From: a virus
Lineage: Duplodnaviria > Caudoviricetes
IMG/VR virus record: IMGVR_UViG_3300024252_000005
Strand: one strand, 5' to 3'
DNA: 64,000 nt
A model generated the notes under the pieces. It made no database searches, was not told the DNA's origin, and saw nothing but the letters and a program-made list of their open reading frames with translations. Position numbers and translations under genes: made by a program. Below, one piece after another: positions 3,737 through 64,000 of the stretch; the first letter of the stretch is position 1, and the number at the start of each line of letters is the position of its first letter.

Positions 3737-4518
3737 AATAAAAAACTATTTACGTAATTTCTAATTAAGCTTTCATTAGAAGAAGAAATTTGCGAAGAAG
3801 GTCTTCCAAGTTCTACACTTTTAACAAGAGTTGTAGCTATCTTTTCTTTGTTCTCTTCGCTAAGAGAACGAGGAAGCATTACTTTTAGGCTTTCAATATC
3901 ACCGCTCATTAAGTATTTTCTCATTTGTGTGCCGCTTATTGCAACAACTCTTGGGATAGGTAATACATTTATCAATCCTGATTCAAACATTTCACCGTAA
4001 TAGTTTAACATTAATTGATCACTATATCTAGGCGCATCATCTTCACCGCAATAGAAAGTAATAGCTGTTTCGCCTGTTTCATATCTAATATCTGAAATAG
4101 GGTCTATCCAATAAGACTCACCTTCATTATATGCATCTCTAAAAGCATTGGCTACATCAAATCCAGCCTTAACTGGAGAGTTGATTCCAGACTCTCTTGG
4201 AGTAATAATTGAAACATTGGTTCCAGAATATGACAAATTATCAGCTGTTAGTATATTATTCCAGATATATTCCATGTCTTTACCGAAAACAGGAGCTTCT
4301 CCAGGAATAGGTTCTTCAAATTTAACACCTTTTCTAGATCTTTTTTTAACACCTCTACTTGAATATGAAACGTATACATTAACTTTATCATTTTCTTGTT
4401 CAGCAAATCCTAGGTTGACTAGTTCATCTAGTAATTCAATACCAGCAGCAAATCTGATTAACGAATTGTGGCCTGCATGAAATGGTTTAGCAGACATTGG
4501 TACAATACCTATTTTCAT
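3733..4518 (-). CDS. Cytidylyltransferase-like (HxGH) nucleotidyltransferase
   Basis: KPFHAGH motif at the N-terminus; ISGTQMRK matches the C-terminal SxT/SxxR motif. Confidence 0.85.
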   Translation of the reverse strand: MKIGIVPMSAKPFHAGHNSLIRFAAGIELLDELVNLGFAEQENDKVNVYVSYSSRGVKKRSRKGVKFEEPIPGEAPVFGKDMEYIWNNILTADNLSYSGTNVSIITPRESGINSPVKAGFDVANAFRDAYNEGESYWIDPISDIRYETGETAITFYCGEDDAPRYSDQLMLNYYGEMFESGLINVLPIPRVVAISGTQMRKYLMSGDIESLKVMLPRSLSEENKEKIATTLVKSVELGRPSSQISSSNESLIRNYVNSFLF

Positions 4519-4529
4519 ATTTCTATCCT

Positions 4530-11119: not shown

Positions 11120-11283
11120 AAATAGGCAATTTAGCTGTTATAGAAAGCTGTGATTCTATTTGGAGATTTGCTAATACATCTTTGATTTGCTTAGGATATG
11201 ATTGGAGTGATATTGCTTCTATGGTGAAGAAATCAGAAGAATAGCAATTAGAGAAAAAGCATTAGAAAGAATGAAAATAAAAA

Positions 11284-36288: not shown

Positions 36289-36444
36289 TACCATCAACAG
36301 AGATCAAACCGGTACAGCCATAAATACTCCGAGCGGGATTCGAACCCGCAAGCCATAAGGCGCCTGATTTTAAGTCAGGTTTGTCTACCAATTCCAACAT
36401 CAGAGTTAATAATTTACTGCGTCTGCCTATTCCGTCATGGTGGC
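36289..36444 (-). pseudogene. Degenerate tRNA-Leu-type gene split into a 5' half (36411-36444) and a 3' part (36289-36324) around an intact tRNA-Leu
   Basis: 5' GCCACCA TG ACG GAATAGGCAGA CGC A GTAAA TT; 3' TTTATGGCTGT ACCGG TTTGATC TCTGT TGATGGT A; the acceptor halves pair at 6 of 7 positions. Confidence 0.7.
36325..36406 (-). tRNA. tRNA-Leu(TAA), no encoded CCA
   Basis: ACTCTGA/TCGGAGT acceptor, CCTGA CT TAA AA TCAGG anticodon arm, long variable arm, GGTTCGAATCC T-arm. Confidence 0.95.
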
Positions 36445-36600
36445 TTGATTAATGTCATGTTTATGCCAGTCAGGATTACAAATAGTACACCAATTATCAC
36501 ACTTCTTGCAACCGTATATCTCTTGTACGCCTTTGACACACTCATGCAAGAAAAAATCATAAGTTTTTTTGCACTTTTTACATTTTGATTTTTTGCTCAT
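36427..36600 (-). CDS. Small Cys-rich Zn-binding protein (57 aa) missed by the ORF track
   Basis: MSKKSKCKKCKKTYDFFLHECVKGVQEIYGCKKCDNWCTIC...; similar to the C-terminus of 46560..47213. Confidence 0.7.
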   Translation of the reverse strand: MSKKSKCKKCKKTYDFFLHECVKGVQEIYGCKKCDNWCTICNPDWHKHDINQATMTE

Positions 36601-37351: not shown

Positions 37352-39541
37352 ATGAAGTTATTAAGAGAACACTATAAAGAGCTGTTAAACGAAGAAATTG
37401 ATTATTCTTCAAAGTTGGCAACAGTATATCATCTTACAGGATTTAAAACTGAACAATATGATTCTGTTTACGCAAAACTTAAAAAGAAAACGCCTAAAGA
37501 CCTTGAAGGTGAGATTGATGCAAAATATAGCTCAAAGCCAAAGTCTAGAGCACAGAGTATTTTATCTAAAACTGAGTACAAAGCAGGACTTAAAAATTTA
37601 AAAAAATACAAAACATCAGCAGGACAAGCTTATCATATAGCAAGAAATATTAGCAATAATTTATTTGATGTAGGAAGTTATTTTCAAGCAGGCGGTGGTG
37701 CAGCATACGGATCAGGTCTTTACACTTGTTATAGATTAAATCCAAAAATAGCGCAGAATTACGGTAACGTTATTTTAAGGTTTGATGTAGACATATCAAA
37801 CTTTTTAATATTCAATGAAGGAATAGCAAGAAAAATACACGGTAATGATCATTATAAGTTAGACGACCAATTTATGCAAATTCTTAAAAGAAAAGGATTT
37901 AATCTTCGCGGACACTACGAATACTCTGATTCTGTAGAAATGTCGGACGACGCTGAAGAGAACTTAGGTGACTATATTGCTTTGCTCGATCAAATGTCTT
38001 CTTCTGATGCTTTTAAGAATAGTGATTTTAATACAGACGTAAGAACAGCAGATATGGCAAATCATGCTTTGTATGAATTTAGCAAGAAATTTAAAAACGG
38101 CAGTGCTTTAAAACTAAGAGATATCATTGATGGTGTTATATTTTATGGTTATAGTGACGGCCCTGTTTGTGTAATATATCACCCAGAATCTCTAGGAACT
38201 TATAAACTTACAGGTGCAGGTTATTTTAAGAATGGTCGGCCTGTAATAGAGTCAGACATAGAAGCTTTAGTAGGTAGAACAGGAAGAGATCTCGCAAATT
38301 CTTTTCAAACTTCACAAGAACTAGATCAAGATGCTCAAGAGCGAGCTGAAGAAAGAAATCAAAGATTTAAAGATGTTCTTACAAATTACGAAATAAACTC
38401 AAAAACTTCAGAAGAAGAGTTTATCAACAATATTCCTTCAGAACTTACTAGCATTATTGAACCCTTAAGACTGGTACTTGAAGATAATATTCCTGAAGAT
38501 ATTATGATAGAAAGGTTAAGCTCAACTACCAACTGGGATAAATTCTTACAAGGCATGGCAGATTCATATCATTACATTCAATGTATTGTTTCTATACTTG
38601 CTGAGCCAATGTTAAAATTTATTGAACATTTTGGCCCAGGTTTGGAAATAATTAGTGAGGACGAGTTTAAAGAATATTTTAAGTTATTTAAACAATATGC
38701 ACAAAATAAAACTTCTAATGCACCAAAGCTTGCAGATTTTGAGTCTAGAGGTTTGAAGTGTGTAGCACAAAACGAAGAGGAGTTTTCTAATCTTGTTGAT
38801 CAACATTTAGGAAGTCTTATTGAGAATTATAATACAATGTTAAGAGATCAGATAGGCGCATATTTTGTTGACTTCGTAGTTGCAGCCATGTTTGACGGTG
38901 AGACCAGTAGCATTAATAATTCTATTGGCAGATGTACTTTGGATACAATTGATATCAATACTGACAATGATAAAAAAGTTATCGAGAAGCACATGTCAGT
39001 TATTAACAACATACTTTCTAACGTACAAAGCAAGTTAATTGAATTTATTACAAAAACAATACCGGAAAATGTACAATCTGATGAAGGCAAAAATGCAGTT
39101 CGAATAGCATTCAGACATGTAGACGCTTTTGATGAAAATGGCAACATTTTTCTTGATGAGATTATTGAAAGATATGGCTGGTATTCTGATTGGTGTCACG
39201 CTGGTACTGAGTTATTTTATACTATACATGAAACTTTTAACGTAGGTTCTTTCGATGCTTTCACTAGTGAATTAAATTCTTACAAAATTGACAGAGAAAA
39301 ATTTGATCCTGAATTCATACTTCATGAAATGTATGAAGTTCCTAATAATAATTTATTAGGTGATGTATCTGGCTTAGTTCTAGTAATGTTTAAAAACGGC
39401 AAGGATGTCTATAAAAGAAACAACATAATGTCAACTGAATATCTATATAAACAAATTCTTGAATCAAAAGCAACTAATGTAGCATATGCTGTTCAAGAAC
39501 AATTTTATGTAGGCTCGCCTGGGGGAAGCATTGATATTTAA
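37352..39541 (+). CDS. Large protein with N-terminal ADP-ribosyltransferase-like domain
   Basis: VYHLTG, YGSGLYT, AQNYG, IDGVIF...VCVIYHP; leader MKLLREHYKELLNEE. Confidence 0.7.
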   Translation: MKLLREHYKELLNEEIDYSSKLATVYHLTGFKTEQYDSVYAKLKKKTPKDLEGEIDAKYSSKPKSRAQSILSKTEYKAGLKNLKKYKTSAGQAYHIARNISNNLFDVGSYFQAGGGAAYGSGLYTCYRLNPKIAQNYGNVILRFDVDISNFLIFNEGIARKIHGNDHYKLDDQFMQILKRKGFNLRGHYEYSDSVEMSDDAEENLGDYIALLDQMSSSDAFKNSDFNTDVRTADMANHALYEFSKKFKNGSALKLRDIIDGVIFYGYSDGPVCVIYHPESLGTYKLTGAGYFKNGRPVIESDIEALVGRTGRDLANSFQTSQELDQDAQERAEERNQRFKDVLTNYEINSKTSEEEFINNIPSELTSIIEPLRLVLEDNIPEDIMIERLSSTTNWDKFLQGMADSYHYIQCIVSILAEPMLKFIEHFGPGLEIISEDEFKEYFKLFKQYAQNKTSNAPKLADFESRGLKCVAQNEEEFSNLVDQHLGSLIENYNTMLRDQIGAYFVDFVVAAMFDGETSSINNSIGRCTLDTIDINTDNDKKVIEKHMSVINNILSNVQSKLIEFITKTIPENVQSDEGKNAVRIAFRHVDAFDENGNIFLDEIIERYGWYSDWCHAGTELFYTIHETFNVGSFDAFTSELNSYKIDREKFDPEFILHEMYEVPNNNLLGDVSGLVLVMFKNGKDVYKRNNIMSTEYLYKQILESKATNVAYAVQEQFYVGSPGGSIDI

Positions 39542-39822
39542 TCTTCAAATGCGATTTTGATATCATTATAAGGATCATTTGTATTTGCATAAAACAATGC
39601 TAGTTTACCTTTGTCGTTCAATAAACGAAAAACGCACTTACAATAGAAGCCATTCTCAACTTCTTTATGTATAACCAAATGAACATTGTTGTTTTTGCCT
39701 TTCTCATAGTTCATTCCTGTAATTTCTACTAAGTCACCAACTTTTATTTGGCCATACATGAAATAAAAACTCGATATACTTTTGAAATTAAATTTATGTG
39801 AATCATAGAATGATAATAGCAA
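39538..39822 (-). CDS. Hypothetical protein
   Basis: QIKVGDLVEI small beta-barrel pattern. Confidence 0.6.
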   Translation of the reverse strand: MLLSFYDSHKFNFKSISSFYFMYGQIKVGDLVEITGMNYEKGKNNNVHLVIHKEVENGFYCKCVFRLLNDKGKLALFYANTNDPYNDIKIAFED

Positions 39823-39849
39823 AAAGTATTCTAAGAAGGAAATTTATTA

Positions 39850-39999
39850 ATGAAAAATAATAATGTATTGCAAAGATATATTGAAAATATTCTATTAGAA
39901 ATAGCATCAATTGGAAAACAATCTAACTTTAAGCTAGAAGAAGAAATAGAAAGTCTTGAAAGAAGACTAATTCATATGCAAACGCATGAGAATTATTAG
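39850..39999 (+). CDS. Small protein (49 aa) with the virion-type leader, missed by the ORF track
   Basis: MKNNNVLQRYIENILLEIASIG...; AAGGA RBS. Confidence 0.55.
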   Translation: MKNNNVLQRYIENILLEIASIGKQSNFKLEEEIESLERRLIHMQTHENY

Positions 40000-40023
40000 T
40001 TAACACACTAGACAGGACTTGAA

Positions 40024-40063
40024 CACGCCTATCTGGACTCGAACCAGAACTCTTGGGCTTAAG
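40024..40063 (-). pseudogene. 3' half of a split tRNA (Arg-type identity)
   Basis: CTT AA GCCCA AGAGT TCTGG TTCGAGT CCAGA TAGGCGT G: perfect T-stem; acceptor strand pairs with 41085-41091. Confidence 0.8.
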
Positions 40064-40150
40064 CACCTCCTGGAGGATTCGAACCTCGCACTCTCCAATT
40101 CCCCTATATTAATGAGACCGGCTTAGAAGGCCAGTGGGGATGCAGAAGGC
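40064..40150 (-). ncRNA. Atypical D-armless tRNA-like RNA with TCT (Arg) anticodon
   Basis: 8-bp acceptor GCCTTCTG/CAGGAGGT; CTGGC CT TCT AA GCCGG; 4-bp T-stem GAGG TTCGAAT CCTC; an 8-nt linker replaces the D-arm. Confidence 0.75.
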
Positions 40151-40247
40151 ATATAACAATATTATTATTTTTTTGTTTATTGTTAAATTATTTTTGCATT
40201 AACATTGATCTAAGCATATTTATTATATGTTCAAGTTGAGGATAAAT

Positions 40248-41057
40248 ATGTATTGCAATAAATGTGAAAAAGAGATACCCAAAAAAGAAGCTGGTAATCA
40301 TAAAAGATGGTGTGGAAATAAAAAAACTATTAAAGATTCTTACTGTAAGATATGTAATTCTCCAATAAAAAACACAAGAACAAACTCAGTTAGAAAATAC
40401 TGTGCTAGAGAATGTTTTAACAAAGGAGTATATACTAAAGAGTTTAAACAAAAAATATCTAATAGCAGAAAAAAATATCTTAAGGAAAACCCTAACAGTC
40501 ATCCTTGGTGTAAAGAAAACAAATTTAAGTCTGCGCTAAAGAAGTTTCTTAAGGAAAATAATATAGACTTCATTGAAGAGCACCAGCCTCTGAAAGATAG
40601 ATTTTTCTCTATTGATATTGCCATACCAGAAGTTATGTTTGGAATAGAAGTAAATGGTGAGCAACATTATAATAGGGATAAAACTCTTAAGAAATATTAT
40701 CAAGAAAGACATAATTTAATTAAAGCACAAGGTTGGGTGATATATGAGATTCACTACTCTAAAGTTTATGACGATATTTTTTTATCGAGTTTAATTGAAA
40801 GAATAAGAAAAAATAATTTTAATAACTTTACAATAGACTTTGAGTTACGTAAAAACAAAGTTAAAAGAAGAAAAAATGTAAAGGAAGTCTCTCTAAAGCA
40901 TAAAGAAGAAAAAGCTAAAAAGTTGCTTGAAACAAGATTAGAACATATTAGTAAGGCTGAAAAGAATTGGGGTTGGATTTCCAAAGCTTCTCGAGATCTA
41001 GATATAAGTCATACTCATGTAAGAAGGCTCGTAAACAAGTATCTTTCTGATGCGTAA
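40248..41057 (+). CDS. Free-standing homing-type endonuclease (Zn fingers, Vsr/DUF559-like PD-(D/E)xK domain, C-terminal HTH)
   Basis: CNKC, CKIC...YCAREC; FSIDIAI...GIEVNGEQHY...GWVIYEI; GAGGA RBS before ATG 40248. Confidence 0.82.
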   Translation: MYCNKCEKEIPKKEAGNHKRWCGNKKTIKDSYCKICNSPIKNTRTNSVRKYCARECFNKGVYTKEFKQKISNSRKKYLKENPNSHPWCKENKFKSALKKFLKENNIDFIEEHQPLKDRFFSIDIAIPEVMFGIEVNGEQHYNRDKTLKKYYQERHNLIKAQGWVIYEIHYSKVYDDIFLSSLIERIRKNNFNNFTIDFELRKNKVKRRKNVKEVSLKHKEEKAKKLLETRLEHISKAEKNWGWISKASRDLDISHTHVRRLVNKYLSDA

Positions 41058-41091
41058 AGGCCCCTGCTTTATCCTATTAAGCTATAAGCGC
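41058..41091 (-). pseudogene. 5' half of a split tRNA (Arg-type identity)
   Basis: GCGCTTA TA GCTT AATAGGATA AAGC A GGGGC CT; ends at U33, exactly at the endonuclease stop codon. Confidence 0.8.
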
Positions 41092-41095
41092 TGAA

Positions 41096-41141
41096 TAGAT
41101 CTTTAATCAGAATTACTATTATTCTTTATATTAAAGATCTA
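41096..41141. repeat. Perfect 12-bp inverted repeat between tRNA elements
   Basis: TAGATCTTTAAT (41096-41107) and ATTAAAGATCTA (41130-41141). Confidence 0.85.
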
Positions 41142-41143
41142 AA

Positions 41144-41216
41144 TGGGCACCCTGGGATTTGAACCCAGAATCGACGCTTTATGAGAGCGCTGCCTTAACC
41201 CTTTGGCCAGATGCCC
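41144..41216 (-). tRNA. tRNA with CAT anticodon, probably Ile2 (lysidine type); no encoded CCA
   Basis: GGGCATC/GGTGCCC acceptor with C4-G69 and A73; GCGCT CT CAT AA AGCGT. Confidence 0.9.
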
Positions 41217-41256
41217 ATATAAGACCTTTTTGCTCTAACTACTGGGCTATAGGCCC
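41217..41256 (-). pseudogene. Degenerate 5' half of a tRNA-Ile-type gene
   Basis: GGGCCTA TA GCCC AGTAGTTA GAGC ... CT TAT, running directly into the intact CAT tRNA. Confidence 0.65.
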
Positions 41257-41317
41257 GTTAAAGGTGCTAAAAGCACCTAGATAATTATATAATCAAACTT
41301 TTAAAAGTTTAACAATA

Positions 41318-41704
41318 TTAACGTGGAGATACAACAAAAGTTTGATTATTAACTTGGTATGTATTAGTAATTCCTGAAGAATTGTAATTTTGTGCAACTT
41401 GCTGAATCCTTCTCAATTGATCATTAATTCTATGAAGCTTGATAAAACTCCCATTATTAGGCTTTCGATAATTAACACATGTATACTTAGATCGATTACG
41501 TGTTGTAGTTGTAGTTGTGCTGTTGTTTGACGCTGTTACAATCTTTTCATTAGTCTTAATAATTCTATTAATAGTTCCATTCCTGTTTGCTGAGTAATAA
41601 ACGCCTGGGTTCTGTGTATCCATAAACATCATTGTACCGTTGCTAATCTGGCGAACTGTTGAAGTCTCAATAAAACGATTTGTGTCAAAATTTGTGTTTC
41701 CCAT
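41318..41704 (-). CDS. Paralog family C protein
   Basis: FIETSTVRQISNGTMMF. Confidence 0.7.
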   Translation of the reverse strand: MGNTNFDTNRFIETSTVRQISNGTMMFMDTQNPGVYYSANRNGTINRIIKTNEKIVTASNNSTTTTTTRNRSKYTCVNYRKPNNGSFIKLHRINDQLRRIQQVAQNYNSSGITNTYQVNNQTFVVSPR

Positions 41705-41759
41705 AAAATGTACCTTTCTTATGGTGTTGAAATATTTGGGTTACTTAGCACTTACTATA

Positions 41760-42062
41760 TTATAGTAAATCTAAGTCAGAAGAACGAATAAATATGAATT
41801 CGCTCTCATCGGAATCATCTACGACAATAGTGATTCCACCTATTGAAAACAATAAGCACTTAAAACTTTTTTTACTTTTAGCAAAATAAATAGTTCCTAT
41901 CTTATTAGCAATATTCATTATCTTGCTATAAGATTCAATATTCTCTTTGCTATTTTCAATACAAACAATATCTTCTATATTTGATCTCAAGATAGAAGAT
42001 ATTTCTTTTGTCAACATATGCTTTTTATTCTGGATATTGTTTTTGTTTTTGCTAATATTCAT
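41760..42062 (-). CDS. Hypothetical protein
   Basis: ORF downstream of a promoter copy. Confidence 0.55.
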   Translation of the reverse strand: MNISKNKNNIQNKKHMLTKEISSILRSNIEDIVCIENSKENIESYSKIMNIANKIGTIYFAKSKKSFKCLLFSIGGITIVVDDSDESEFIFIRSSDLDLL

Positions 42063-57811: not shown

Positions 57812-58180
57812 TCAATAATAAAACCTAATCAACTCAATAAACTTCTCCAATAACATATAATCACTCTCTAACTCATACTGATCAGCTAACTCAGGATCAC
57901 ACACAATCTCTACTCCCTCCCTTAACAATATCTCAAATAACTCCTCACACGCCTTCTCATACTCCACTCCCATATCATAACTTATATATATCACCTCATC
58001 ATATACTCCATCACTTACCCCTACCTTGTAACCCTCATGCTGAATCAATACTAAACTACCATCTACTCGCTCAATAGTTCCACAACCACTCGGCGGAGAT
58101 CTATAATCCACAACAAATAATACCCTCCCCTCCAAACATAATCTACTCATAACCAAAACCTTTCTATTCTTATTCAACAA
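57812..58180 (-). CDS. Hypothetical acidic protein
   Basis: ORF in the skewed block. Confidence 0.5.
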   Translation of the reverse strand: MLNKNRKVLVMSRLCLEGRVLFVVDYRSPPSGCGTIERVDGSLVLIQHEGYKVGVSDGVYDEVIYISYDMGVEYEKACEELFEILLREGVEIVCDPELADQYELESDYMLLEKFIELIRFYY

Positions 58181-58421
58181 GTGGCCAAAAAGACGTTCTG
58201 TGGGAACTTCTCAAAAAACATATGTTATACCTTATCTAGTTTATTCTAATTAAACGTAGATTAACGTCGTAACTGTTAACGCAACGCTAGGCTGATGACT
58301 CGGGACAAAGCTGAGCGCTGACTCGGAATATGAATCTCTATTCATTAGACTTTTTTTGACACCGGGTTGCGCAGAAGCTAGATCAATAGCTGTGCTACGT
58401 GCGCAGAATCGGCATAGAGCT

Positions 58422-58700
58422 TTAGATGGGATTATTGGTATTGTATTCGCGGAGAGCTTCGGCGACTTCTAACATTCCCGTCAGTGCTTTTCTGGTTGTG
58501 ATCTCGCGCTGATCAAACTTTCGTTTAGTCGACTGCACACCAGATGTTTGACCTTGTATTACCATGGATCTCATTACTTCGAGAGCAAGCTCTGAATCCT
58601 CTTCCCTGACATGAAGGTGTATTCTTCGGTCGCCGGGTGCGATATCGATGTAGGCTATGGCATACTTTGATTCAGTGTTAATGTTTCGAATTGAGGGCAT
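58422..58700 (-). CDS. Hypothetical protein
   Basis: AAGGA RBS; first gene of the higher-GC block. Confidence 0.7.
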   Translation of the reverse strand: MPSIRNINTESKYAIAYIDIAPGDRRIHLHVREEDSELALEVMRSMVIQGQTSGVQSTKRKFDQREITTRKALTGMLEVAEALREYNTNNPI

Positions 58701-58728
58701 ATTTTATTTCCTTATAATGCTATAGTTT

Positions 58729-58953
58729 TCAGAGATTATCCATATACTCCGTGACATCCCTTGCAACATCTTCGTATGAATCTGTAACATGGATGCATTT
58801 GCCGTTGTTAAAGTGTATCCAGCAAGTCTCGCCCAGCTTTTCAATAGTATTCTCTTTGCACTGATTGACATGAGAGATAGAGTCGAAGGGGACAAGAACG
58901 TTGATGTTAGAGTTGACTGTATTGTATGTTGTGTATCGTGAAGCGTTTGTCAT
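58729..58953 (-). CDS. Hypothetical protein
   Basis: AAGGAT RBS. Confidence 0.7.
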   Translation of the reverse strand: MTNASRYTTYNTVNSNINVLVPFDSISHVNQCKENTIEKLGETCWIHFNNGKCIHVTDSYEDVARDVTEYMDNL

Positions 58954-58978
58954 GATGATGATCCTTTATTTATTTAAG

Positions 58979-59021
58979 AAAAGCTGCGACTAGATCTATG
59001 CGCAAGTAGATTAAAAGTTGT
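58979..59021. repeat. Hairpin-containing intergenic repeat, copy 1
   Basis: AAAAGCTGCGACTAGATCTATGCGCAAGTAGATTAAAAGTTGT. Confidence 0.8.
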
Positions 59022-59036
59022 GTAGCGAACGAAGAG

Positions 59037-59243
59037 TTAGTCTTCGCTATTTTCGTCTAGTTGTTGTTGTAAGAGTAAGACATGGTTCATAATAGAAATG
59101 GCGATCTCTATGTCACCATCGATGAAAGCACTGTTAACTTTACCTTGAAGTGCTTTCATCTTTTTACGGATCTCTTGTTTATTAAAATATTGCTTTTTAA
59201 GTTTTTTGTTATCGCGAGGTTTGTGATTATCGGATTGAGACAT
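59037..59243 (-). CDS. Hypothetical protein (start moved downstream of the promoter)
   Basis: MSQSDNHKPR...; the ORF-track start lies inside the promoter. Confidence 0.65.
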   Translation of the reverse strand: MSQSDNHKPRDNKKLKKQYFNKQEIRKKMKALQGKVNSAFIDGDIEIAISIMNHVLLLQQQLDENSED

Positions 59244-59277
59244 ATCATCCACCTTGTGTGTGTGTTGTTGTTGATAT

Positions 59278-59307
59278 ATTATATCAATGATATTATGTAT
59301 TTGCACG
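59278..59307 (-). promoter_or_regulatory. Repeated phage promoter
   Basis: CGTGCAA-N17-TATAAT. Confidence 0.8.
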
Positions 59308-59365
59308 TCGGGTTGATGACGCAGAGGGTTGTAGCCTCGAGGCTGCTTTTTCCCTGGGTGAAGAC

Positions 59366-59584
59366 TTAGTTTTGTTTAGGGTACATGAGTAGTTGAGCTT
59401 CGTGAGAAGACATCCAGTGGATATTCATTGCGTCGCCATCGTCGAAGACTTCTTGTCCGCCGCGAATATGAATTGGTTCTTTGAAGTCGATGGTTTGAAC
59501 AGGAGGCATGTTGTGTTTAACTGCGAAGAAAGCGCCAATTGAAAGAGTAAAGGAGATGAGGAGTGCGATTAAGTTACCTTGCAT
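59366..59584 (-). CDS. Small N-terminally anchored membrane protein
   Basis: LIALLISFTLSIGAFFAV. Confidence 0.65.
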   Translation of the reverse strand: MQGNLIALLISFTLSIGAFFAVKHNMPPVQTIDFKEPIHIRGGQEVFDDGDAMNIHWMSSHEAQLLMYPKQN

Positions 59585-59610
59585 ATGTAGATCTTTCTTT
59601 AGTGTAGTGA

Positions 59611-59925
59611 TTAAATAAATAGTGCAGAAGCGACTAGGTTTAGCCAGGGAGAAGTCTTAGCGTTGTTATTCTTTGCTGGTTCATGTGTAACCTTGCACAC
59701 TTCAGCCCTTTGAATATCCTTGTAATATCTTGCTGTTAGCTCATCCTTGCATTGTAGAGCTTCTTGGGCATCGTTAAAATAGAAGCATCGTGAAGGTTTC
59801 TTCATGTCTGGGTGAAGTAATACATGAACTGCGAAAGTGTACTGTTCAGATGAGCTAAGCCATGAGACTTTGTCACCGTGAGAGTTAATAGCGATATTGT
59901 AGTATGAAGCGTGTTCGTCAAACAT
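59611..59925 (-). CDS. Hypothetical protein
   Basis: ORF downstream of hairpin repeat copy 2. Confidence 0.65.
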   Translation of the reverse strand: MFDEHASYYNIAINSHGDKVSWLSSSEQYTFAVHVLLHPDMKKPSRCFYFNDAQEALQCKDELTARYYKDIQRAEVCKVTHEPAKNNNAKTSPWLNLVASALFI

Positions 59926-59950
59926 ATTGTTAGCCTTGTAATGTTATTGT

Positions 59951-59993
59951 AAAAGTTGCGACCAGATCTACGCAAAAGTAGATCAAAAGCTGT
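59951..59993. repeat. Hairpin-containing intergenic repeat, copy 2
   Basis: AAAAGTTGCGACCAGATCTACGCAAAAGTAGATCAAAAGCTGT. Confidence 0.8.
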
Positions 59994-60036
59994 TTCTTCT
60001 TATTTAGGATGACACGTTAGCGTTGATATACGCGAG

Positions 60037-60252
60037 TCACTCTGTATCTAGACTGTACCAATCATTGACCAACCAGCCATGCTCATCGCTCAGCGCGTCT
60101 GTAACTTGGAAAAGTGTAACTGTGCTCATGTCTTCGAAGTAATCAGATAGATCAACTTCGAGTGGCACTCCGTTAGCATTAGCAAATTGATCATGCTCTT
60201 CAGGTGTATGATTGGAAGGTAAGTCGAAGTCCCATTGGATTTGAATGATCAT
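60037..60252 (-). CDS. Paralog family B protein
   Basis: IQWDFDLP...VPLEVDLSDYFED...VTDALSDEHGWLVN. Confidence 0.8.
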   Translation of the reverse strand: MIIQIQWDFDLPSNHTPEEHDQFANANGVPLEVDLSDYFEDMSTVTLFQVTDALSDEHGWLVNDWYSLDTE

Positions 60253-60288
60253 GTTGATCCTTGATTGTTTGGGTAGTGGTGATGGTTT

Positions 60289-60319
60289 ATTATAATATGA
60301 TATTAAGTTGGATTACACG
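60289..60319 (-). promoter_or_regulatory. Repeated phage promoter cassette
   Basis: CGTGTAA-N18-TATAAT then AAACCATCACCAC. Confidence 0.85.
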
Positions 60320-60396
60320 TTAGAGCTGTCGACCAATATTTTTACCTAATCTATGCTTGAATAGTTAAAGTAGTGTTAGCTATATGTGTAACGATA

Positions 60397-60708
60397 TCAC
60401 ATGCTCCAATAAGACTCTGATGAAGGTGAGCAGTAAGAAGGTGTATTATACCTTTCCTTATACTCTTCACCTGACATCATGTTCTTTCGAATGACATAAG
60501 TTTCGTAGATATTTGTAACAAAGCGCTCAGCTTCAGGATACTGTGCTTTACATAATTCTTCAACTTCTTTCCTGCTCAATCCTTCATGATCATGAAATTC
60601 AACAAATCTTAATCCAGCCTTGTTCTTTCCCGAGCGAATAGACTTAGACCTAGATGTAATACGATTGTCTTTTTTGTATACTTCAACAGTAAATTGATTA
60701 GTTGTCAT
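60397..60708 (-). CDS. Paralog family D protein
   Basis: Ends TPSYCSPSSESYWSM. Confidence 0.8.
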   Translation of the reverse strand: MTTNQFTVEVYKKDNRITSRSKSIRSGKNKAGLRFVEFHDHEGLSRKEVEELCKAQYPEAERFVTNIYETYVIRKNMMSGEEYKERYNTPSYCSPSSESYWSM

Positions 60709-60756
60709 ATTAAAGCTTTCTTGGTTGATTGATTTTTTGATGTTGCCTTATGATAT

Positions 60757-60787
60757 ATTATACACAACGAATTAACTAGTTTACACG
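60757..60787 (-). promoter_or_regulatory. Repeated phage promoter
   Basis: CGTGTAA-N18-TATAAT. Confidence 0.82.
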
Positions 60788-60828
60788 CACAGAGTGCGAC
60801 GATGCCAGCCGTTGCCAGGCCAAGTCAG

Positions 60829-61239
60829 TTACTTCATGATGAGGGTGTGGCCAGGATTAGTGAATCGGCCGCGATACCCCTTGTAGTTAGCTGAGATACG
60901 ATCGATCATATCCATCCGAGCTTGAGCACAAGGTTCTTTGATAACTTTTTTAGAATTGAATCCCCACTGAGTTGGAATGCTCTTGCGACGATTGATAACG
61001 AACTGATCTTGGACCTTGTAGGTCTTAGACACACCTTCAGGTGGAGGAAAGGAGTTATAGATAGGATTGGTGTATTCTGCGTTGATCTCACGTCGTACGT
61101 AGCCATTAGCATATGAGATGTAAGATACTTTATGTTGTTGGCAGAAGAACTGTTGGTTGCCGCGACGTGCTTGGACTGGTGTTGTGGTCTCGATGAGGTT
61201 TGTGTTTTGAGGCTGAATGGTGTGGATATTGGTGTCCAT
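60829..61239 (-). CDS. Paralog family C protein
   Basis: LIETTTPVQARRGNQQF...SYANGYVRR. Confidence 0.75.
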   Translation of the reverse strand: MDTNIHTIQPQNTNLIETTTPVQARRGNQQFFCQQHKVSYISYANGYVRREINAEYTNPIYNSFPPPEGVSKTYKVQDQFVINRRKSIPTQWGFNSKKVIKEPCAQARMDMIDRISANYKGYRGRFTNPGHTLIMK

Positions 61240-61274
61240 GATGGTCCTTATTGGATGAGCGGTGTTGATGGTTT

Positions 61275-61305
61275 ATTATAATATACGTGTTATTTAAGTT
61301 GCACG
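61275..61305 (-). promoter_or_regulatory. Repeated phage promoter cassette
   Basis: CGTGCAA-N18-TATAAT then AAACCATCAACAC. Confidence 0.85.
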
Positions 61306-61318
61306 ACCTAGTTATAAC

Positions 61319-61585
61319 TTAGCGCTTGATGAGCATATTTTCGTTGTTGAAAAAGTGTGCGTATGTGACAGCAAAAGAATCTACAAACTCTCTCTTTCGA
61401 TTATAGATGCACACATTGTAATCGTTATGCAGTTTCATCGATCGTGTTGTCATGCTCTTGCCTGAGTCAATGTCAGTAACTAAAACCTTGTGACCAGTAG
61501 CGAACGGTGCTTTGGAGCTTAGCCATAGAACGTGAGCCTGTAGAGGTTTAGGTGTGTCAACAATAATAATGTTTTGTGAATCCAT
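61319..61585 (-). CDS. Hypothetical protein
   Basis: Promoter cassette upstream. Confidence 0.7.
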   Translation of the reverse strand: MDSQNIIIVDTPKPLQAHVLWLSSKAPFATGHKVLVTDIDSGKSMTTRSMKLHNDYNVCIYNRKREFVDSFAVTYAHFFNNENMLIKR

Positions 61586-61620
61586 GATGATCCTTATTGG
61601 ATGAGTGGTGGTGATGGTTT

Positions 61621-61651
61621 ATTATAATATGGAAGTTAACTTAGTTACACG
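61621..61651 (-). promoter_or_regulatory. Repeated phage promoter cassette
   Basis: CGTGTAA-N18-TATAAT then AAACCATCACCAC. Confidence 0.85.
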
Positions 61652-61673
61652 ACGTGGGTTGGCGAGAGGATTG

Positions 61674-61859
61674 TTATAGATAGATTCCTCTGCTGATTTG
61701 AGACTTAAGCGACTCCTTGCGTTGCGAGATGTCTTCAAGCTTACCGGTCAAACCGTTTTTGTGTAGCTCTTTAGTGTAAGAAGCTGTAGCTTGACGAAGT
61801 AACTCTTTGAGTTCGTTGCGAGTGTGGACGATGATCATTGATTGTTTGTTGGAGTTCAT
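61674..61859 (-). CDS. Hypothetical protein
   Basis: Promoter cassette upstream. Confidence 0.7.
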   Translation of the reverse strand: MNSNKQSMIIVHTRNELKELLRQATASYTKELHKNGLTGKLEDISQRKESLKSQISRGIYL

Positions 61860-61891
61860 GTTGAACCTTATTGTTTGGGTGGTGATGGTAT

Positions 61892-61922
61892 ATTATAATA
61901 TGATTATTAACTTAGTTGCACG
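61892..61922 (-). promoter_or_regulatory. Repeated phage promoter cassette
   Basis: CGTGCAA-N18-TATAAT then ATACCATCACCAC. Confidence 0.85.
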
Positions 61923-62223
61923 AAGGCTCGTGCCATGCGTAGTTATTGATGAGCCAGCCGAATTCGTCGCTGAGAGCATCAGTGATTTGCTCAGGTGAAA
62001 CACTTCGTGGGTCTTCAAAGTAATCAATGAGATCGACTTGTTGTGGGACACCGAATAACATTGAAACGTCTCGTTTATACCCAGCTAATCGCTCGGGATC
62101 TTCCAGGATGACCTCGATGTCTCCTTCAGATAGACCAAGCATCTCTTGAGTTTGTTCATCCTGTTCGATGTCAAACTCCCAGTCAATGTTAATGATTGTT
62201 GATTGTGTGTTTGGTGTTTCCAT
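61912..62223 (-). CDS. Paralog family B protein (start moved to METPNT)
   Basis: IDWEFDI...VPQQVDLIDYFED...ITDALSDEFGWLIN; the stop lies next to the following -35 box. Confidence 0.8.
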   Translation of the reverse strand: METPNTQSTIINIDWEFDIEQDEQTQEMLGLSEGDIEVILEDPERLAGYKRDVSMLFGVPQQVDLIDYFEDPRSVSPEQITDALSDEFGWLINNYAWHEPSCN

Positions 62224-62263
62224 TATATTAAATCCTTTGTTGGATAAGTAGTGGTGATGGTTT

Positions 62264-62294
62264 ATTATAATATATGTGTTATCTAAGTTACACG
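62264..62294 (-). promoter_or_regulatory. Repeated phage promoter cassette
   Basis: CGTGTAA-N18-TATAAT then AAACCATCACCAC. Confidence 0.85.
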
Positions 62295-62334
62295 AATAGG
62301 GTTGATGACGCCGCTGGTTGAACGGCCAAGACAA

Positions 62335-63141
62335 TTAAAAGATGTCGTCGTTGAGCTCATCGTCGGAGTTATCTTCAAGATCTGGATCTGCAAGACCTTC
62401 GGCTGCTAGAAATGCTTCCCATTCCTCAGGGTTGTCTGATGTTGGAGCTTCGTTTAGTTCTTCAAAAGGATCAGAATCTGTTTCTTTTACGTTAGGTCCA
62501 ATGACAACGTCAGCACGAGTTACAGCGCTTTTTTCCTTAGGCTCAGGCTTAACATCTTCAGGCTTAACATCTTCAGATTCAGCTTTTGCTGAGCTACTGG
62601 ACTCAAGGCCGAGAGCATGAGGGGTTTTATTCATTGGGCGAATTGCCTCATCAAGGACATCAATTGCGATATAGTGAAGTTGCTTAGTATGATCAAGTTT
62701 AGACCCACCAGTTCTGACTTCAAAAGCTGCACAGTTTTTCCCATTTGAGACTCGAGGTGCAGAAAATCTGATCCAAGCAGCACCTTTAGCTTCAGTGTTA
62801 GTTATGTAATCACTGCAATCAATGCCTTGAGATTGAAGTTCAGTTATAGTCAGACTGATCTCTTGAAGAGAAACGAAAACCCATTTAGCACCGGTGCCAG
62901 AAAACTTTGCTTTGACATCGCGTCGCCAAACTGCTTCGCCTTCTCCGGTCTTGCCTGATCTTGTTGTTAGATGCTTGATGTGACTGTCAATCAGTTCGTT
63001 AAGATGCTTCTTGAAGCCAGTTACGGAAGCTTTGTGTCCTTCAGCAATGAAGTTATCAAAAAGACCGCGGATCATTTCGTCGTCGTACTTATTCATTTCA
63101 GTTCCTTGACTGTTTGATTGTGGGAGAGAATTGTTATTCAT
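62335..63141 (-). CDS. Paralog family A protein with acidic tail
   Basis: FSGTGAKWV, GAAWIRF, FEVRTGGSK; ends DDELNDDIF. Confidence 0.8.
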   Translation of the reverse strand: MNNNSLPQSNSQGTEMNKYDDEMIRGLFDNFIAEGHKASVTGFKKHLNELIDSHIKHLTTRSGKTGEGEAVWRRDVKAKFSGTGAKWVFVSLQEISLTITELQSQGIDCSDYITNTEAKGAAWIRFSAPRVSNGKNCAAFEVRTGGSKLDHTKQLHYIAIDVLDEAIRPMNKTPHALGLESSSSAKAESEDVKPEDVKPEPKEKSAVTRADVVIGPNVKETDSDPFEELNEAPTSDNPEEWEAFLAAEGLADPDLEDNSDDELNDDIF

Positions 63142-63188
63142 ATTGAATCCTTATTTATTGTTGGTTTGAAGGTGTGCCTTATGGATGT

Positions 63189-63219
63189 ATTATATGTTAT
63201 GTTGATTGAAACTTACACG
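63189..63219 (-). promoter_or_regulatory. Repeated phage promoter
   Basis: CGTGTAA-N18-TATAAT then ACATCCATAAGGCAC. Confidence 0.82.
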
Positions 63220-63224
63220 CGGTA

Positions 63225-63431
63225 TTAAACCTCATCATCTTTTTTGTTTTCTAGAACTTCATCGATGACACCAGTTTCTTTTAGATGGAACTCAAGAGCT
63301 TGACGTCCTTCCTCTGTGATGCTGATGTATTCTTCTTCGTTGCACATTGCTTCCTGATAGTAATCGAAGATCTTGCAGCCAAGGACAAAGCCTAAAGCTA
63401 GAATGATGATGTAGATTAGAGTGGAAAACAT
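63225..63431 (-). CDS. Small N-terminally anchored membrane protein
   Basis: LIYIIILALGFVLGC. Confidence 0.65.
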   Translation of the reverse strand: MFSTLIYIIILALGFVLGCKIFDYYQEAMCNEEEYISITEEGRQALEFHLKETGVIDEVLENKKDDEV

Positions 63432-63476
63432 TTGAATCCTTGTTGAGTGTTTGTTTGTTGTTGTCCTTACTTATAT

Positions 63477-63507
63477 ATTATATAATAAGGAATAACTTCG
63501 TTACACG
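63477..63507 (-). promoter_or_regulatory. Repeated phage promoter
   Basis: CGTGTAA-N18-TATAAT. Confidence 0.82.
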
Positions 63508-63546
63508 AAGTGTCGACGACCTAGGTGGCTAACCCGTCAAGGAAGA

Positions 63547-63960
63547 TTACTGAACGAAGTTTCGTTTGATCTCTTCTTGATTAGCGATGTCAACGAGCTG
63601 TTTGCTGTGCTTAAGTGCAATCTTTCGTGCTCTGAACATAACAGACTTTCCTTGAGCATAGTGACCTAGAACGCGCTCGCATAATGGGTGTCGAAGATCC
63701 TTTTGTGGGTAGCGAACTTCGTTGCGATCGTTCATCCCAAGGAGCCACCGAGCCATGCGAGTCCCAGCTTTAGCGTCAGCAGCTGAGAAGCCGACAGAGT
63801 TCTCATACTTGGTCGTTGAAGTCTTAACTTCATCAGAAGTCTGCAAATTGAAGAGTCGCACGATAGCTCTCATCACCGCGATGTCGTTGTCGTTTAGAAG
63901 TTGATCGATCTCAGATCGTGTCCATATGCGTAGTGTCTTTGTTGATGTCTTGTCAGTCAT
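63547..63960 (-). CDS. Hypothetical phage protein
   Basis: ND.AV.RAIV.LF..QT.DE...N.VGF...DA pattern. Confidence 0.7.
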   Translation of the reverse strand: MTDKTSTKTLRIWTRSEIDQLLNDNDIAVMRAIVRLFNLQTSDEVKTSTTKYENSVGFSAADAKAGTRMARWLLGMNDRNEVRYPQKDLRHPLCERVLGHYAQGKSVMFRARKIALKHSKQLVDIANQEEIKRNFVQ

Positions 63961-64000
63961 AGTTAATCCTTGATGGAGTGTTGAAATGTTGTTTTGGACC

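What the first reader, a model, noticed from the sequence alone, without database searches (positions are those of the whole stretch)
40024..41091. Structurally intact tRNA halves split about 1 kb apart by an endonuclease gene plus a replacement tRNA-like RNA
Seen: the 5' half (41058-41091) ends at U33 exactly at the stop codon of the antisense endonuclease ORF. The 3' half (40024-40063) begins right after the discriminator G of the atypical tRNA. Joined, they form a 74-nt cloverleaf with 7/7 acceptor pairs, perfect D- and T-stems and a 7-nt loop CT-CTT-AA. A20 and G73 are Arg-type features, so the ancestor was probably Arg(TCT), the same anticodon as the insert; the literal junction reads Lys(CTT). 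Inference: a recent insertion of an endonuclease-plus-tRNA mobile unit. Alternatively, the halves are still rejoined at RNA level.
Basis: partly seen in the sequence, partly recalled or inferred. Interest (0 to 1): 0.9.

Follow-up and report, generated by a model that had tools for sequence, protein, structure and literature searches.

The report
Endonuclease cassette replacing phage tRNA-Arg
A marine phage's arginine tRNA gene has been cut in two at its anticodon by a selfish DNA-cutting-enzyme gene that brings along its own oddly shaped spare tRNA with the same anticodon, so the two intact-looking halves are fresh wreckage rather than a gene spliced back together.

Summary
The two halves, with one missing C between them, match an uninterrupted tRNA-Arg(UCU) gene at 72 of 74 positions. 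That intact gene occurs in related phage contigs (L002, L003) and in a seawater DNA run.

The 995-bp insert replaces C35 of the anticodon. It holds:
- an antisense, Vsr-like endonuclease gene with zinc ribbons and a C-terminal helix-turn-helix;
- a spacer with two promoter-like sites facing opposite ways;
- an 87-nt tRNA-like gene with a UCU anticodon and no D-arm.

In relatives the outer 5' half decays or is exchanged. The endonuclease gene is lost outright in one lineage and replaced by only a distant paralogue in another. The tRNA-like gene is always kept, and every stem substitution preserves pairing. The cassette also sits in two other tRNA genes.

More distant homologues of the endonuclease lie beside tRNA-Arg(UCU) genes that carry a group I intron at the same place (U34|C35). 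One lies beside another D-arm-less tRNA(UCU).

I found no ribozyme and no pairing between the insert ends. The joined form in sequencing runs is a DNA allele. RNA-level rejoining is therefore not supported.

Best reading: a homing cassette that breaks the tRNA gene and supplies a substitute the enzyme does not cut. This scan has noted endonuclease-plus-spare-tRNA cassettes on other DNA before. The D-arm-less spare and the link to the intron are new here.

The parts
41057..41091 (-). 5' part of a tRNA-Arg(UCU) gene: acceptor 5' strand, D-arm, anticodon-stem 5' strand, C32, U33 and U34. The T at 41057 is shared with the stop codon of the endonuclease ORF.
   Evidence: 34/35 identical to the intact genes in L002 (from 1570) and L003 (from 5199).
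40227..41057 (+). Endonuclease ORF, antisense to the tRNAs. It is 276 aa as listed; the likely start is the ATG at 40248, behind GAGGA. It has N-terminal Cys-rich ribbons, a Vsr-like nuclease core and a C-terminal helix-turn-helix.
   Evidence: ORF. Pfam MTES_1575, E 1.7e-4, below cut-off. 103 homologues, some labelled very-short-patch-repair endonuclease. Invariant D130, E141, N143, Q146, H147. Model pLDDT 84. Foldseek hits 3r3p (I-Bth0305I catalytic domain; probability 1.0, TM 0.75 by target), 1vsr and 3hrl.
40151..40226 (.). AT-rich spacer with two diverging promoter-like sites. The plus-strand site (40199-40226) faces the endonuclease gene. The minus-strand site (40186..40159) ends 8 nt before the tRNA-like RNA.
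   Evidence: Consensus scan; the total number of sites is not above shuffles, so position and conservation are the argument. The part next to the tRNA-like gene is kept in loci that lost the ORF.
40064..40150 (-). 87-nt tRNA-like gene. It has an 8-bp acceptor stem, a 4-bp T stem with T-loop TTCGAAT, and a 5-bp anticodon stem with loop CT-TCT-AA. It has no D-arm. Instead nt 11-15 pair with nt 47-51 of a 30-nt variable region. Discriminator G; no encoded CCA.
   Evidence: Eight distinct 87-nt copies without indels. 100% of stem cells paired; compensatory changes at 15/47, 16/53 and 21/29. RNAalifold finds the same structure on its own. No Rfam tRNA hit; tRNA-Sec 20.5 bits against a cut-off of 47. 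ARAGORN finds nothing at default settings.
40062..40063 (-). Two junction bases (CT) between the tRNA-like RNA and the 3' part. The intact allele has a single C (C35) here.
   Evidence: The base after the discriminator varies among relatives (CTT, CTC, ATT, TTT).
40024..40061 (-). 3' part of the tRNA-Arg(UCU) gene: U36, A37, A38, anticodon-stem 3' strand, variable loop, T-arm, acceptor 3' strand and discriminator.
   Evidence: 37/38 identical to the intact genes of L002 and L003. 92-98% identical in the loci where the cassette sits in the Arg gene.
40004..40023 (-). Older relic of another tRNA (T-loop, T-stem 3' strand, acceptor 3' strand), directly downstream.
   Evidence: Homologous but longer relics follow the Arg gene in L001, L002, L004 and L009.

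Best explanation
The halves are the two parts of one phage tRNA-Arg(UCU) gene. It was recently broken, at or next to the U34|C35 bond of the anticodon, by a 995-bp homing cassette.

The cassette has two genes, each with a promoter-like site in front of it:
- a Vsr-like endonuclease gene on the opposite strand;
- an 87-nt tRNA-like gene with a UCU anticodon and no D-arm.

Proposed cycle:
1. In a mixed infection the enzyme cuts cassette-free tRNA-Arg(UCU) genes, and now and then other tRNA genes, in the anticodon region.
2. The break is repaired from the cassette-bearing genome. The tRNA halves and neighbouring tRNA genes serve as homology arms.
3. The target gene is destroyed. The cassette's own UCU RNA takes over reading of AGA, which is 70% of this phage's Arg codons. 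Its gene lacks the D-arm and has the T-arm displaced, so the enzyme does not cut it.
4. The outer halves are not reused and decay. Later the endonuclease gene itself can be lost, while the spare tRNA stays.

Shown: the empty/filled polymorphism, the insertion site, decay of the halves, loss of the ORF, structural conservation of the tRNA-like RNA, and the family's link to tRNA-Arg(UCU).

Inferred: the enzyme's cleavage specificity, charging and use of the tRNA-like RNA in translation, and its immunity to cleavage.

My confidence by part: broken gene plus mobile cassette about 0.9; halves are inert about 0.9; the tRNA-like RNA is a working tRNA-Arg substitute about 0.55.
For: 1. Intact alleles exist. 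L002 and L003 carry the uninterrupted gene. Window flanks + C match it at 72/74. A DNA contig of seawater run X4 joins 40061 to 41057 with one base between and has L002-like flanks.

2. The cassette recurs with variable surroundings. The endonuclease is 78-86% identical in L001, L006, L010/11 and L012, and 54% in L014.

3. In L012 and L014 the cassette splits two other tRNA genes whose acceptor strands pair 7/7. This points to mobility.

4. The halves are not maintained. The 5' half is 64-89% identical to the window's where an ORF is present, against 86-92% for the spacer in L001, L006, L010 and L012. In L004 and L009 about 9 of its 34 positions differ from the intact gene, and in L001 it comes from another tRNA. 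The 3' half has stem-breaking changes in L009 and L010.

5. The ORF is absent from L009. L004/L007 hold only a 34%-identical paralogue. All three keep the tRNA-like gene.

6. The tRNA-like gene is the best-conserved part. In L014 it is 86% identical, against 64% for the ORF DNA and 53% for the spacer. All stem substitutions keep pairing and there are compensatory changes. With L024 added, 11 pairs change on both sides and 0/500 shuffles reach that (the alignment is fitted to the model).

7. The 211-kb relative (84% complete) has only Met, Thr and Lys tRNAs plus the tRNA-like RNA, and no canonical Arg(UCU). AGA is 70% of Arg codons in the window.

8. Homologues at 40-46% identity sit beside tRNA-Arg(UCU) genes that carry a group I intron at U34|C35 (L018, L023, L026). 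Others sit beside a canonical Arg(UCU) (L020) or a second D-arm-less tRNA(UCU) that passes Rfam's tRNA cut-off (L024).

9. Bacterial translation can use a D-arm-less tRNA (PMC11551756).
Against: - No cleavage assay exists, and the nuclease fold match is at weak Foldseek E-values. Pfam is below its cut-off.
- The tRNA-like RNA fails both standard detectors: Rfam tRNA and ARAGORN at default settings. No D-arm-less tRNA is known from bacteria or their viruses (PMC11551756, PMC7609411).
- ArgRS of E. coli uses A20 of the D-loop (my own knowledge), and that loop is absent here.
- The tRNA-like gene shares a 13-bp core (GGCCTTCTAAGCC) with the target, so its immunity to the enzyme is an assumption.
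- The covariation evidence rests mostly on two diverged sequences, L014 and L024.
- No RNA data show that the tRNA-like RNA is made or charged. The RNA contigs did not cover it.
- The cassette also sits in non-Arg tRNA genes, where it does not replace the tRNA it breaks.
Confidence: 0.7

Rival explanations
1. The insert is a new kind of intron. The halves are transcribed, freed and rejoined at RNA level, for example by RNase Z cutting after the tRNA-like RNA plus an RNA ligase. This would give a working 74-nt tRNA.
For: The halves are structurally intact in the window. The 3' half begins exactly where RNase Z would cut the tRNA-like RNA. More distant relatives of the endonuclease do accompany true group I introns at this anticodon position. 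Earlier notes of this scan propose tRNA-shaped inserts removed by tRNA-processing enzymes on other DNA (unchecked).
Against: - No group I or other ribozyme appears at E up to 10. The same search finds RF00028 in L018, L023 and L026.
- The insert ends do not pair above shuffles; 126 of 300 shuffles do as well.
- Nothing defines the 3' end of the 5' half. About 900 nt of antisense ORF follow it.
- The literal join gives CUU or UUU, not UCU, because C35 is missing.
- In relatives the 5' half is decayed, shortened or from another tRNA. The last base of the insert is A in L004.
- The joined form found in runs carries C35 and is present in a DNA run.
Confidence: 0.03
2. The cassette is mobile as described, but the tRNA-like RNA is not a translating tRNA-Arg. 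It could be a decoy or resistant stand-in against host anticodon nucleases, a processing or stability element of the tRNA operon, a cofactor or regulator of the endonuclease, or a tRNA charged with another amino acid, as in allo-tRNAs.
For: It fails the canonical tRNA models. It has an 8/4 acceptor/T layout and a long variable region, as allo-tRNAs and tRNA-Sec do (PMC5389517). It accompanies the cassette into non-Arg tRNA genes. Phage tRNA variants that evade tRNA-cutting defences are known (PMC10264068), and SegB amplifies tRNA loci against Septu (PMC13096335).
Against: - It is kept where the endonuclease gene is lost, so it is not a mere cofactor.
- The anticodon loop CT-TCT-AA, the T-loop and the discriminator are invariant or tRNA-like in all copies.
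- Phages with it lack another UCU tRNA, and AGA is the main Arg codon. Reading AGA as anything but Arg would be costly.
- The variable region pairs with the D-replacement strand and does not form the free hairpin that SerRS reads.
Confidence: 0.22
3. No homing is involved. The pattern comes from illegitimate recombination among similar tRNA genes in a cluster, and the ORF is a passenger or an inactive relic.
For: The cluster is full of tRNA relics of different ages: 40004-40023, 36289-36444, 41218-41256, and several in L002-L004. No enzymology exists for this protein.
Against: - In four different tRNA contexts the anticodon-loop remnant of the 5' half runs straight into the ORF's stop codon, with no spacer.
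- The ORF is full length. The residues invariant across 32 homologues are kept.
- Its homologues lie among tRNA genes in all loci fetched with DNA, several at the same anticodon position as a group I intron.
- Filled and empty alleles coexist in seawater samples.
Confidence: 0.05

Closest known systems
Collaborative homing: a free-standing endonuclease beside an intron-bearing gene (F-CphI with the psbA intron of cyanophage S-PM2; mobE with I-TevIII in T4). Sources: PMC6083498, PMC2790892, PMC3984707.
   Same: [quoted passage not shown] The window's cassette lies at the same position. In both systems the donor's copy of the target is interrupted and so protected.
   Different: In the window there is no intron. 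The endonuclease gene itself sits in the target and the gene is lost, not spliced. Function is apparently supplied by a second, unrelated-looking gene in the cassette.
I-Ssp6803I and the group I intron in tRNA-fMet of Synechocystis (cited in PMC3984707)
   Same: An endonuclease of the PD-(D/E)XK superfamily in the broad sense, aimed at the anticodon region of a tRNA gene.
   Different: That enzyme is encoded in sense inside a self-splicing intron. Here the ORF is antisense, about twice as long, has zinc ribbons and a helix-turn-helix, and its core resembles Vsr and I-Bth0305I. There is no ribozyme.
SegB of phage T4, a free-standing GIY-YIG endonuclease in the tRNA cluster (PMC2330249, PMC13096335)
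   Same: A homing endonuclease that lives among phage tRNA genes and drives preferential inheritance of the tRNA region.
   Different: SegB lies between tRNA genes, belongs to another nuclease family and does not split a tRNA or carry a substitute for one.
Synthetic home-and-rescue and cleave-and-rescue gene drives (PMC7968924, PMC7951863)
   Same: The logic matches: a nuclease targets a needed gene, and the element carries a version of that gene the nuclease does not cut.
   Different: Those are engineered Cas9 systems in insects, with recoded protein genes. This is a natural protein-only endonuclease in a phage, and the rescue would be a restructured tRNA. This is an analogy of function only, not family membership.
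D-arm-less mitochondrial tRNAs such as Ascaris tRNA-Ser(UCU), and 8/4 allo-tRNAs (PMC7609411, PMC4013460, PMC5389517)
   Same: No D-arm; the same UCU anticodon as the classic D-arm-less mitochondrial tRNA-Ser; a 12-bp acceptor/T branch in 8/4 layout, as in allo-tRNAs.
   Different: It is found in a virus of bacteria. The D-replacement strand pairs with a long variable region, a topology I did not find described. Allo-tRNAs keep the D-arm.

Membership tests
Homing endonuclease gene (insertional or free-standing) | Encodes a nuclease fold | tested here: met
   AlphaFold model pLDDT 84. Foldseek: 3r3p I-Bth0305I catalytic domain (probability 1.0, TM 0.75 by target), 1vsr and 3hrl. Pfam MTES_1575 E 1.7e-4, below cut-off. 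The E-values are weak because only about 100 of 276 residues match.
Homing endonuclease gene (insertional or free-standing) | Presence/absence polymorphism at one precise site in otherwise homologous DNA | tested here: met
   Empty alleles in L002, L003 and the DNA contig of run X4. Filled alleles in the window, L001, L006, L008 and L010.
Homing endonuclease gene (insertional or free-standing) | Site-specific cleavage of the empty allele and biased inheritance | not testable with these tools
   Needs enzyme assays or mixed infections.
Homing endonuclease gene (insertional or free-standing) | Cycle of invasion, decay and loss among relatives | tested here: met
   ORF absent from L009. Only a 34% paralogue in L004/L007. 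L008 has a different N-terminal part.
Group I intron in a tRNA anticodon loop | Ribozyme core | tested here: not met
   No RF00028 hit at E up to 10 in 39000-42000. The same tool scores 57, 48.7 and 37.1 bits in L026, L018 and L023.
Group I intron in a tRNA anticodon loop | Exons kept functional in relatives; 5' exon ends in U and the intron ends in G | tested here: not met
   U and G are present in the window. The last base is A in L004, and the exons decay or are swapped in relatives.
Split tRNA genes or bulge-helix-bulge introns (archaeal type) | Complementary sequences next to the halves that bring them together | tested here: not met
   RNAduplex of the first and last 60 nt of the insert: -21.3 kcal/mol, against a shuffle mean of -20.95; 126/300 shuffles do as well.
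Canonical tRNA (Rfam RF00005), for the 87-nt RNA | Scores above the family cut-off; four-arm cloverleaf | tested here: not met
   No RF00005 hit. tRNA-Sec 20.5 bits against 47. ARAGORN finds nothing at default settings. The acceptor stem, T-loop, 7-nt anticodon loop and discriminator are present; the D-arm is absent.
allo-tRNA (8/4 or 9/3) | 12-bp acceptor/T branch in 8/4 layout, with a D-arm and a hairpin variable arm | tested here: not met
   RNAalifold predicts the 8/4 layout. There is no D-arm, and the variable region pairs with nt 11-15 instead of forming its own hairpin.

The most novel reading that the evidence does not exclude
This is a natural home-and-rescue element. An endonuclease family specialised on the anticodon of phage tRNA-Arg(UCU) genes protects its own genome in several interchangeable ways. 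These are a group I intron at U34|C35, a canonical but presumably diverged copy, or a working D-arm-less tRNA-Arg(UCU). That tRNA's unusual fold would have been shaped by the need to escape the enzyme while still being charged and used by a bacterial ribosome. It would be the first natural D-arm-less tRNA outside mitochondria.
Probability: 0.45. Interest if true: 0.85.

Novelty: new variant of a known kind. Interest (0 to 1): 0.72.

Why it matters
Homing endonucleases are thought to persist either by hiding in introns and inteins or by sitting between genes. Here one sits inside the gene it destroys and apparently pays for that with a substitute gene. Gene-drive engineers arrived at the same design independently.

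If the 87-nt RNA is charged and used, it shows that a bacterial translation system accepts a natural tRNA without a D-arm. So far that is known only from laboratory evolution (PMC11551756). It would also give a ready-made, structurally distinct tRNA scaffold.

The link between one endonuclease family, an intron at the same anticodon bond and an atypical tRNA gives a testable picture of how mobile introns and free-standing endonucleases exchange roles. It also explains the many tRNA fragments in phage tRNA clusters, which mislead annotation.

Tried and rejected
- blastn of the region against 50,697 GenBank phage records found no match.
- An exact scan for the 5' half in IMG/VR found none.
- The neighbouring 729-aa protein has no relative in IMG/VR.
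- No whole genome is held for the window. I could not list all tRNAs or look for RNA ligase genes in this phage.
- phmmer of the endonuclease against PDB sequences gave only a spurious chitodextrinase hit. NCBIfam gave nothing. PHROGs gave only families of unknown function.
- ARAGORN in mitochondrial or relaxed mode gave inconsistent calls for the tRNA-like RNA (an alternative Ile(AAU) or Ser(GGA) cloverleaf). I rejected them because changes in L010, L012 and L014 break those pairs but keep the pairs of the adopted structure.
- The helix 35-37/58-60 (a pseudoknot with 11-15/47-51) never varies, so it is neither supported nor excluded.
- A degenerate pattern for the tRNA-like RNA found nothing in 185,579 bacterial and archaeal genomes, so there is no host clue.
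- RNA runs X23 and X24 hold only small parts of the stretch, kept as contigs. They did not cover the tRNA-like RNA and cannot show transcription, ends or charging.
- One look-up (P0019) returned no DNA.
- I considered integrase-type insertion at a tRNA gene. I rejected it because there is no integrase, and the element lies between the halves instead of downstream of a restored gene.
Full report
OBSERVATION

On the minus strand the region reads as follows:
- a tRNA 5' half (41091..41058);
- the reverse complement of a 276-codon ORF (40227-41057 on the plus strand, stop at 41055-41057);
- a 76-nt AT-rich spacer;
- an 87-nt tRNA-like sequence (40150..40064);
- a tRNA 3' half (40063..40024).

ARAGORN finds only three ordinary tRNAs in the window: Leu-UAA, Thr-UGU and a CAU tRNA. 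When the two halves are joined literally, it calls a 74-nt tRNA-Lys(CUU) with full acceptor, D and T stems. The description is therefore accurate.

WHAT THE HALVES ARE

An exact scan for the 3' half in IMG/VR found four contigs. In two of them, L002 and L003, the sequence is part of an uninterrupted tRNA-Arg(UCU) gene. The window's left flank through the T at 41057, plus one C, plus the right flank from 40061, equals that gene at 72 of 74 positions.

The insert is thus 995 bp (41056..40062) and replaces C35. Put another way, it lies at U34|C35 with one extra T. The literal junction lacks C35, which is why it reads as Lys.

I laid public runs on the stretch. This gave one joint, 40061 to 41057 with a single base between. 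It occurs in a seawater DNA run (X4) and in an oligo-dT RNA library (X24). The DNA contig continues into an L002-like tRNA-Lys(UUU) on one side and an L002-like relic on the other. The joined form is therefore the empty-site allele of co-occurring phages, not a spliced RNA.

THE CASSETTE IN RELATIVES

The ORF has an 80%-identical copy in a 211-kb viral contig (L001/L005). A metagenome scan with the tRNA-like motif found L006 to L011. Look-ups of protein homologues gave L012-L017, L022 and L029.

Four patterns stand out.

First, the outer 5' half is not maintained. It has 3-4 changes and a stem indel in L006. It has 6 changes in L010 and about 9 in L004, L008 and L009. In L001 it is replaced by the 5' half of a different tRNA. 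The 3' half is 92-98% identical, which is similar to the cassette itself. It nevertheless carries stem-breaking changes in L009 and L010, and the bases at the junction vary.

Second, the ORF can be lost. L009 (9.9 kb) has no homologue, and its 5' relic is fused to the spacer. L004/L007 keep only a 34%-identical paralogue upstream.

Third, the tRNA-like gene is present in every one of these loci. It is the best-conserved segment. In L014 it is 86% identical, against 64% for the ORF DNA and 53% for the spacer.

Fourth, the cassette occupies other tRNA genes. In L012 and L014 it lies between a 5' fragment and a 3' half of two other tRNAs whose acceptor strands pair 7/7. In L022 a 52%-identical ORF splits a Lys-like tRNA and has no tRNA-like gene with it. 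In all these contexts the anticodon-loop remnant of the 5' half runs straight into the ORF's stop codon.

THE tRNA-LIKE RNA

There are eight distinct copies. All are 87 nt long and have no indels. RNAalifold and my manual reading agree on the structure:
- an 8-bp acceptor stem;
- a 5-bp helix between nt 11-15 and nt 47-51;
- a 5-bp anticodon stem with loop CT-TCT-AA;
- a 4-bp T stem with loop TTCGAAT;
- a discriminator G, or A in one copy.

There is no D-arm. The strand that should be the 3' side of the D stem pairs instead with the long variable region.

Every stem substitution keeps pairing, so 100% of cells are paired. The observed changes are C-G to U-A at 15/47, C-G, U-G and U-A at 21/29, U-G to C-G at 18/32, and U-G to U-A at 5/82. 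An isolated A-U to G-C change at 16/53 looks like a tertiary pair.

The evidence is thin, because most of it comes from L014. A second, 75-nt RNA sits next to a 43%-identical endonuclease in L024. It has the same layout, shares the motif before the T stem, and passes Rfam's tRNA cut-off with the D-loop deleted (37.5 bits). Added to the alignment, it gives 11 pairs changed on both sides, and 0 of 500 shuffles reach that. The caveat is that this alignment is fitted to the model.

The window's RNA itself fails the standard detectors.

A promoter-like site (TTAACA, 16 nt, TAATAT) ends 8 nt before the RNA. A second site faces the ORF. The flank next to the tRNA-like gene is kept even where the ORF is gone.

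IS IT A SUBSTITUTE tRNA?

AGA makes up 70% of Arg codons in 23 long ORFs of the window. The phage's tRNAs read UUA, ACA, AUG or AUA (the CAU tRNA may be Ile2-type) and, in relatives, AAA. These are mostly the A-ending codons of an AT-rich genome.

The 211-kb relative is 84% complete. It has only three canonical tRNAs (Met, Thr, Lys) plus the tRNA-like RNA, and no other UCU tRNA.

Relatives without the cassette have the canonical Arg(UCU) instead.

[quoted passage not shown] All of this fits a working substitute, but charging has not been shown.

THE ENDONUCLEASE

The protein has 103 homologues in the large protein collection, and a few are labelled very-short-patch-repair endonuclease. An alignment of 32 homologues keeps D130, E141, N143, Q146 and H147 invariant.

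The AlphaFold model has pLDDT 84. It shows N-terminal ribbons, an alpha/beta core and a C-terminal helical domain. Foldseek matches the core to the I-Bth0305I catalytic domain, to Vsr and to a DUF559-type protein.

Every homologue whose DNA I could fetch lies among tRNA genes.

In L018, L023 and L026 the gene stands beside a tRNA-Arg(UCU) gene interrupted by a group I intron (Rfam 48.7, 37.1 and 57 bits). Read by the rules that a group I 5' exon ends in U and the intron ends in G, the intron lies at U34|C35. That is the position of the window's cassette.

This is the arrangement called collaborative homing (PMC3984707, PMC2790892, PMC6083498). In L020 the neighbour is an ordinary tRNA-Arg(UCU), and in L024 it is the D-arm-less one.

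The simplest reading is that this family cuts the anticodon region of tRNA-Arg(UCU) genes. Carriers then protect or replace their own copy in different ways.

MECHANISM AND RIVALS

I propose homing by double-strand-break repair into the anticodon, loss of the target gene, and rescue by the cassette's own UCU RNA. The outer halves in the window are simply young: they differ from the intact gene at 2 of 74 positions.

Why the tRNA-like gene would escape cleavage is inference. It shares a 13-bp core with the target. However, it lacks the D-arm sequence on one side, and its T-arm is displaced by about 25 bp on the other. A multi-module DNA binder could notice both differences.

RNA-level rejoining is very unlikely, for these reasons:
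- there is no ribozyme;
- the insert ends do not pair;
- nothing defines the 3' end of the 5' half;
- C35 is missing;
- the halves are not conserved in relatives.

A non-translational role for the tRNA-like RNA remains a serious rival at about 0.2. Plain recombination without homing fits poorly. The ORF stop abuts the anticodon-loop remnant in four tRNA contexts, the ORF is intact, and empty and filled alleles coexist.

COMPARISON AND NOVELTY

All of the following are known:
- free-standing endonucleases in phage tRNA clusters (SegB; PMC2330249, PMC13096335);
- intron-encoded enzymes aimed at tRNA anticodons (I-Ssp6803I);
- collaborative homing.

I found no paper describing an endonuclease gene that sits inside a tRNA gene and carries a substitute tRNA. 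I also found none describing a D-arm-less tRNA in a bacterial virus.

This scan has noted endonuclease-plus-spare-tRNA cassettes on other DNA before. Those are unchecked AI notes, and none share this protein. The design is therefore recurrent within the scan. The new elements here are the non-canonical spare tRNA, the tie to a group I intron at the same bond, and the direct population evidence. I class it as a new variant of a known kind.

Noticed in passing
window 36289-36444 (minus strand), with the ORF at about 36445-36600: An intact tRNA-Leu(UAA) (36325-36406) lies between a Leu-type 5' fragment and a decayed Leu-type 3' part; the acceptor strands pair 6/7. A small Cys-rich ORF on the same strand runs into the 5' fragment. 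This looks like an older event of the same kind, with the endonuclease gene gone.
   Followed up: partly
window 41218-41256 (minus strand): A tRNA 5' fragment (acceptor and D-arm, reaching an anticodon-loop-like CT-TAT-AT) directly abuts the intact CAU tRNA (41143-41217). No matching 3' part was seen.
   Followed up: no
window 41092-41142: A 12-bp inverted repeat (TAGATCTTTAAT ... ATTAAAGATCTA) fills the place where the relatives L001, L002, L006 and L010 carry tRNA-Lys(UUU), just upstream of the Arg gene. The window has no Lys tRNA.
   Followed up: no
L024 868-942 (+), same in L025: A 75-nt tRNA(UCU) without a D-loop sits directly upstream of a 43%-identical endonuclease gene. It passes Rfam's tRNA cut-off (37.5 bits), but ARAGORN misses it. 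It shares the motif AACUGGA..UG before the T stem with the window's RNA.
   Followed up: partly
L018 about 2444-2730; L023 about 2014-2308; L026 about 530-820: [quoted passage not shown] This is a collaborative-homing-like arrangement in tRNA genes.
   Followed up: partly
L003 4669-5190: An HNH-type ORF ends 9 nt before the intact tRNA-Arg(UCU) gene. Its last 25 residues resemble the C-terminal helix-turn-helix of the window's enzyme (44% identity, E 2e-6 pairwise). This suggests a shared DNA-binding module on different nuclease cores.
   Followed up: partly
window 9848-12438: An adenylosuccinate synthetase (PurA/PurZ-like, Pfam E 1.5e-90) lies next to a Lyase_1 (PurB-like) gene. This raises the question of a modified-purine (2-aminoadenine) DNA pathway.
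   Followed up: no
window 58000-64000: G+C rises from about 30% to 40-42% and the sign of the skew changes. This may be a module boundary.
   Followed up: no
L004 about 4080-4830 compared with L008: A related endonuclease gene with a NUMOD3-like segment lies in opposite orientations relative to the tRNA-like gene in the two contigs. It is flanked in L004 by inverted copies of a ~30-nt piece made of an anticodon-stem relic and the start of the spacer.
   Followed up: no
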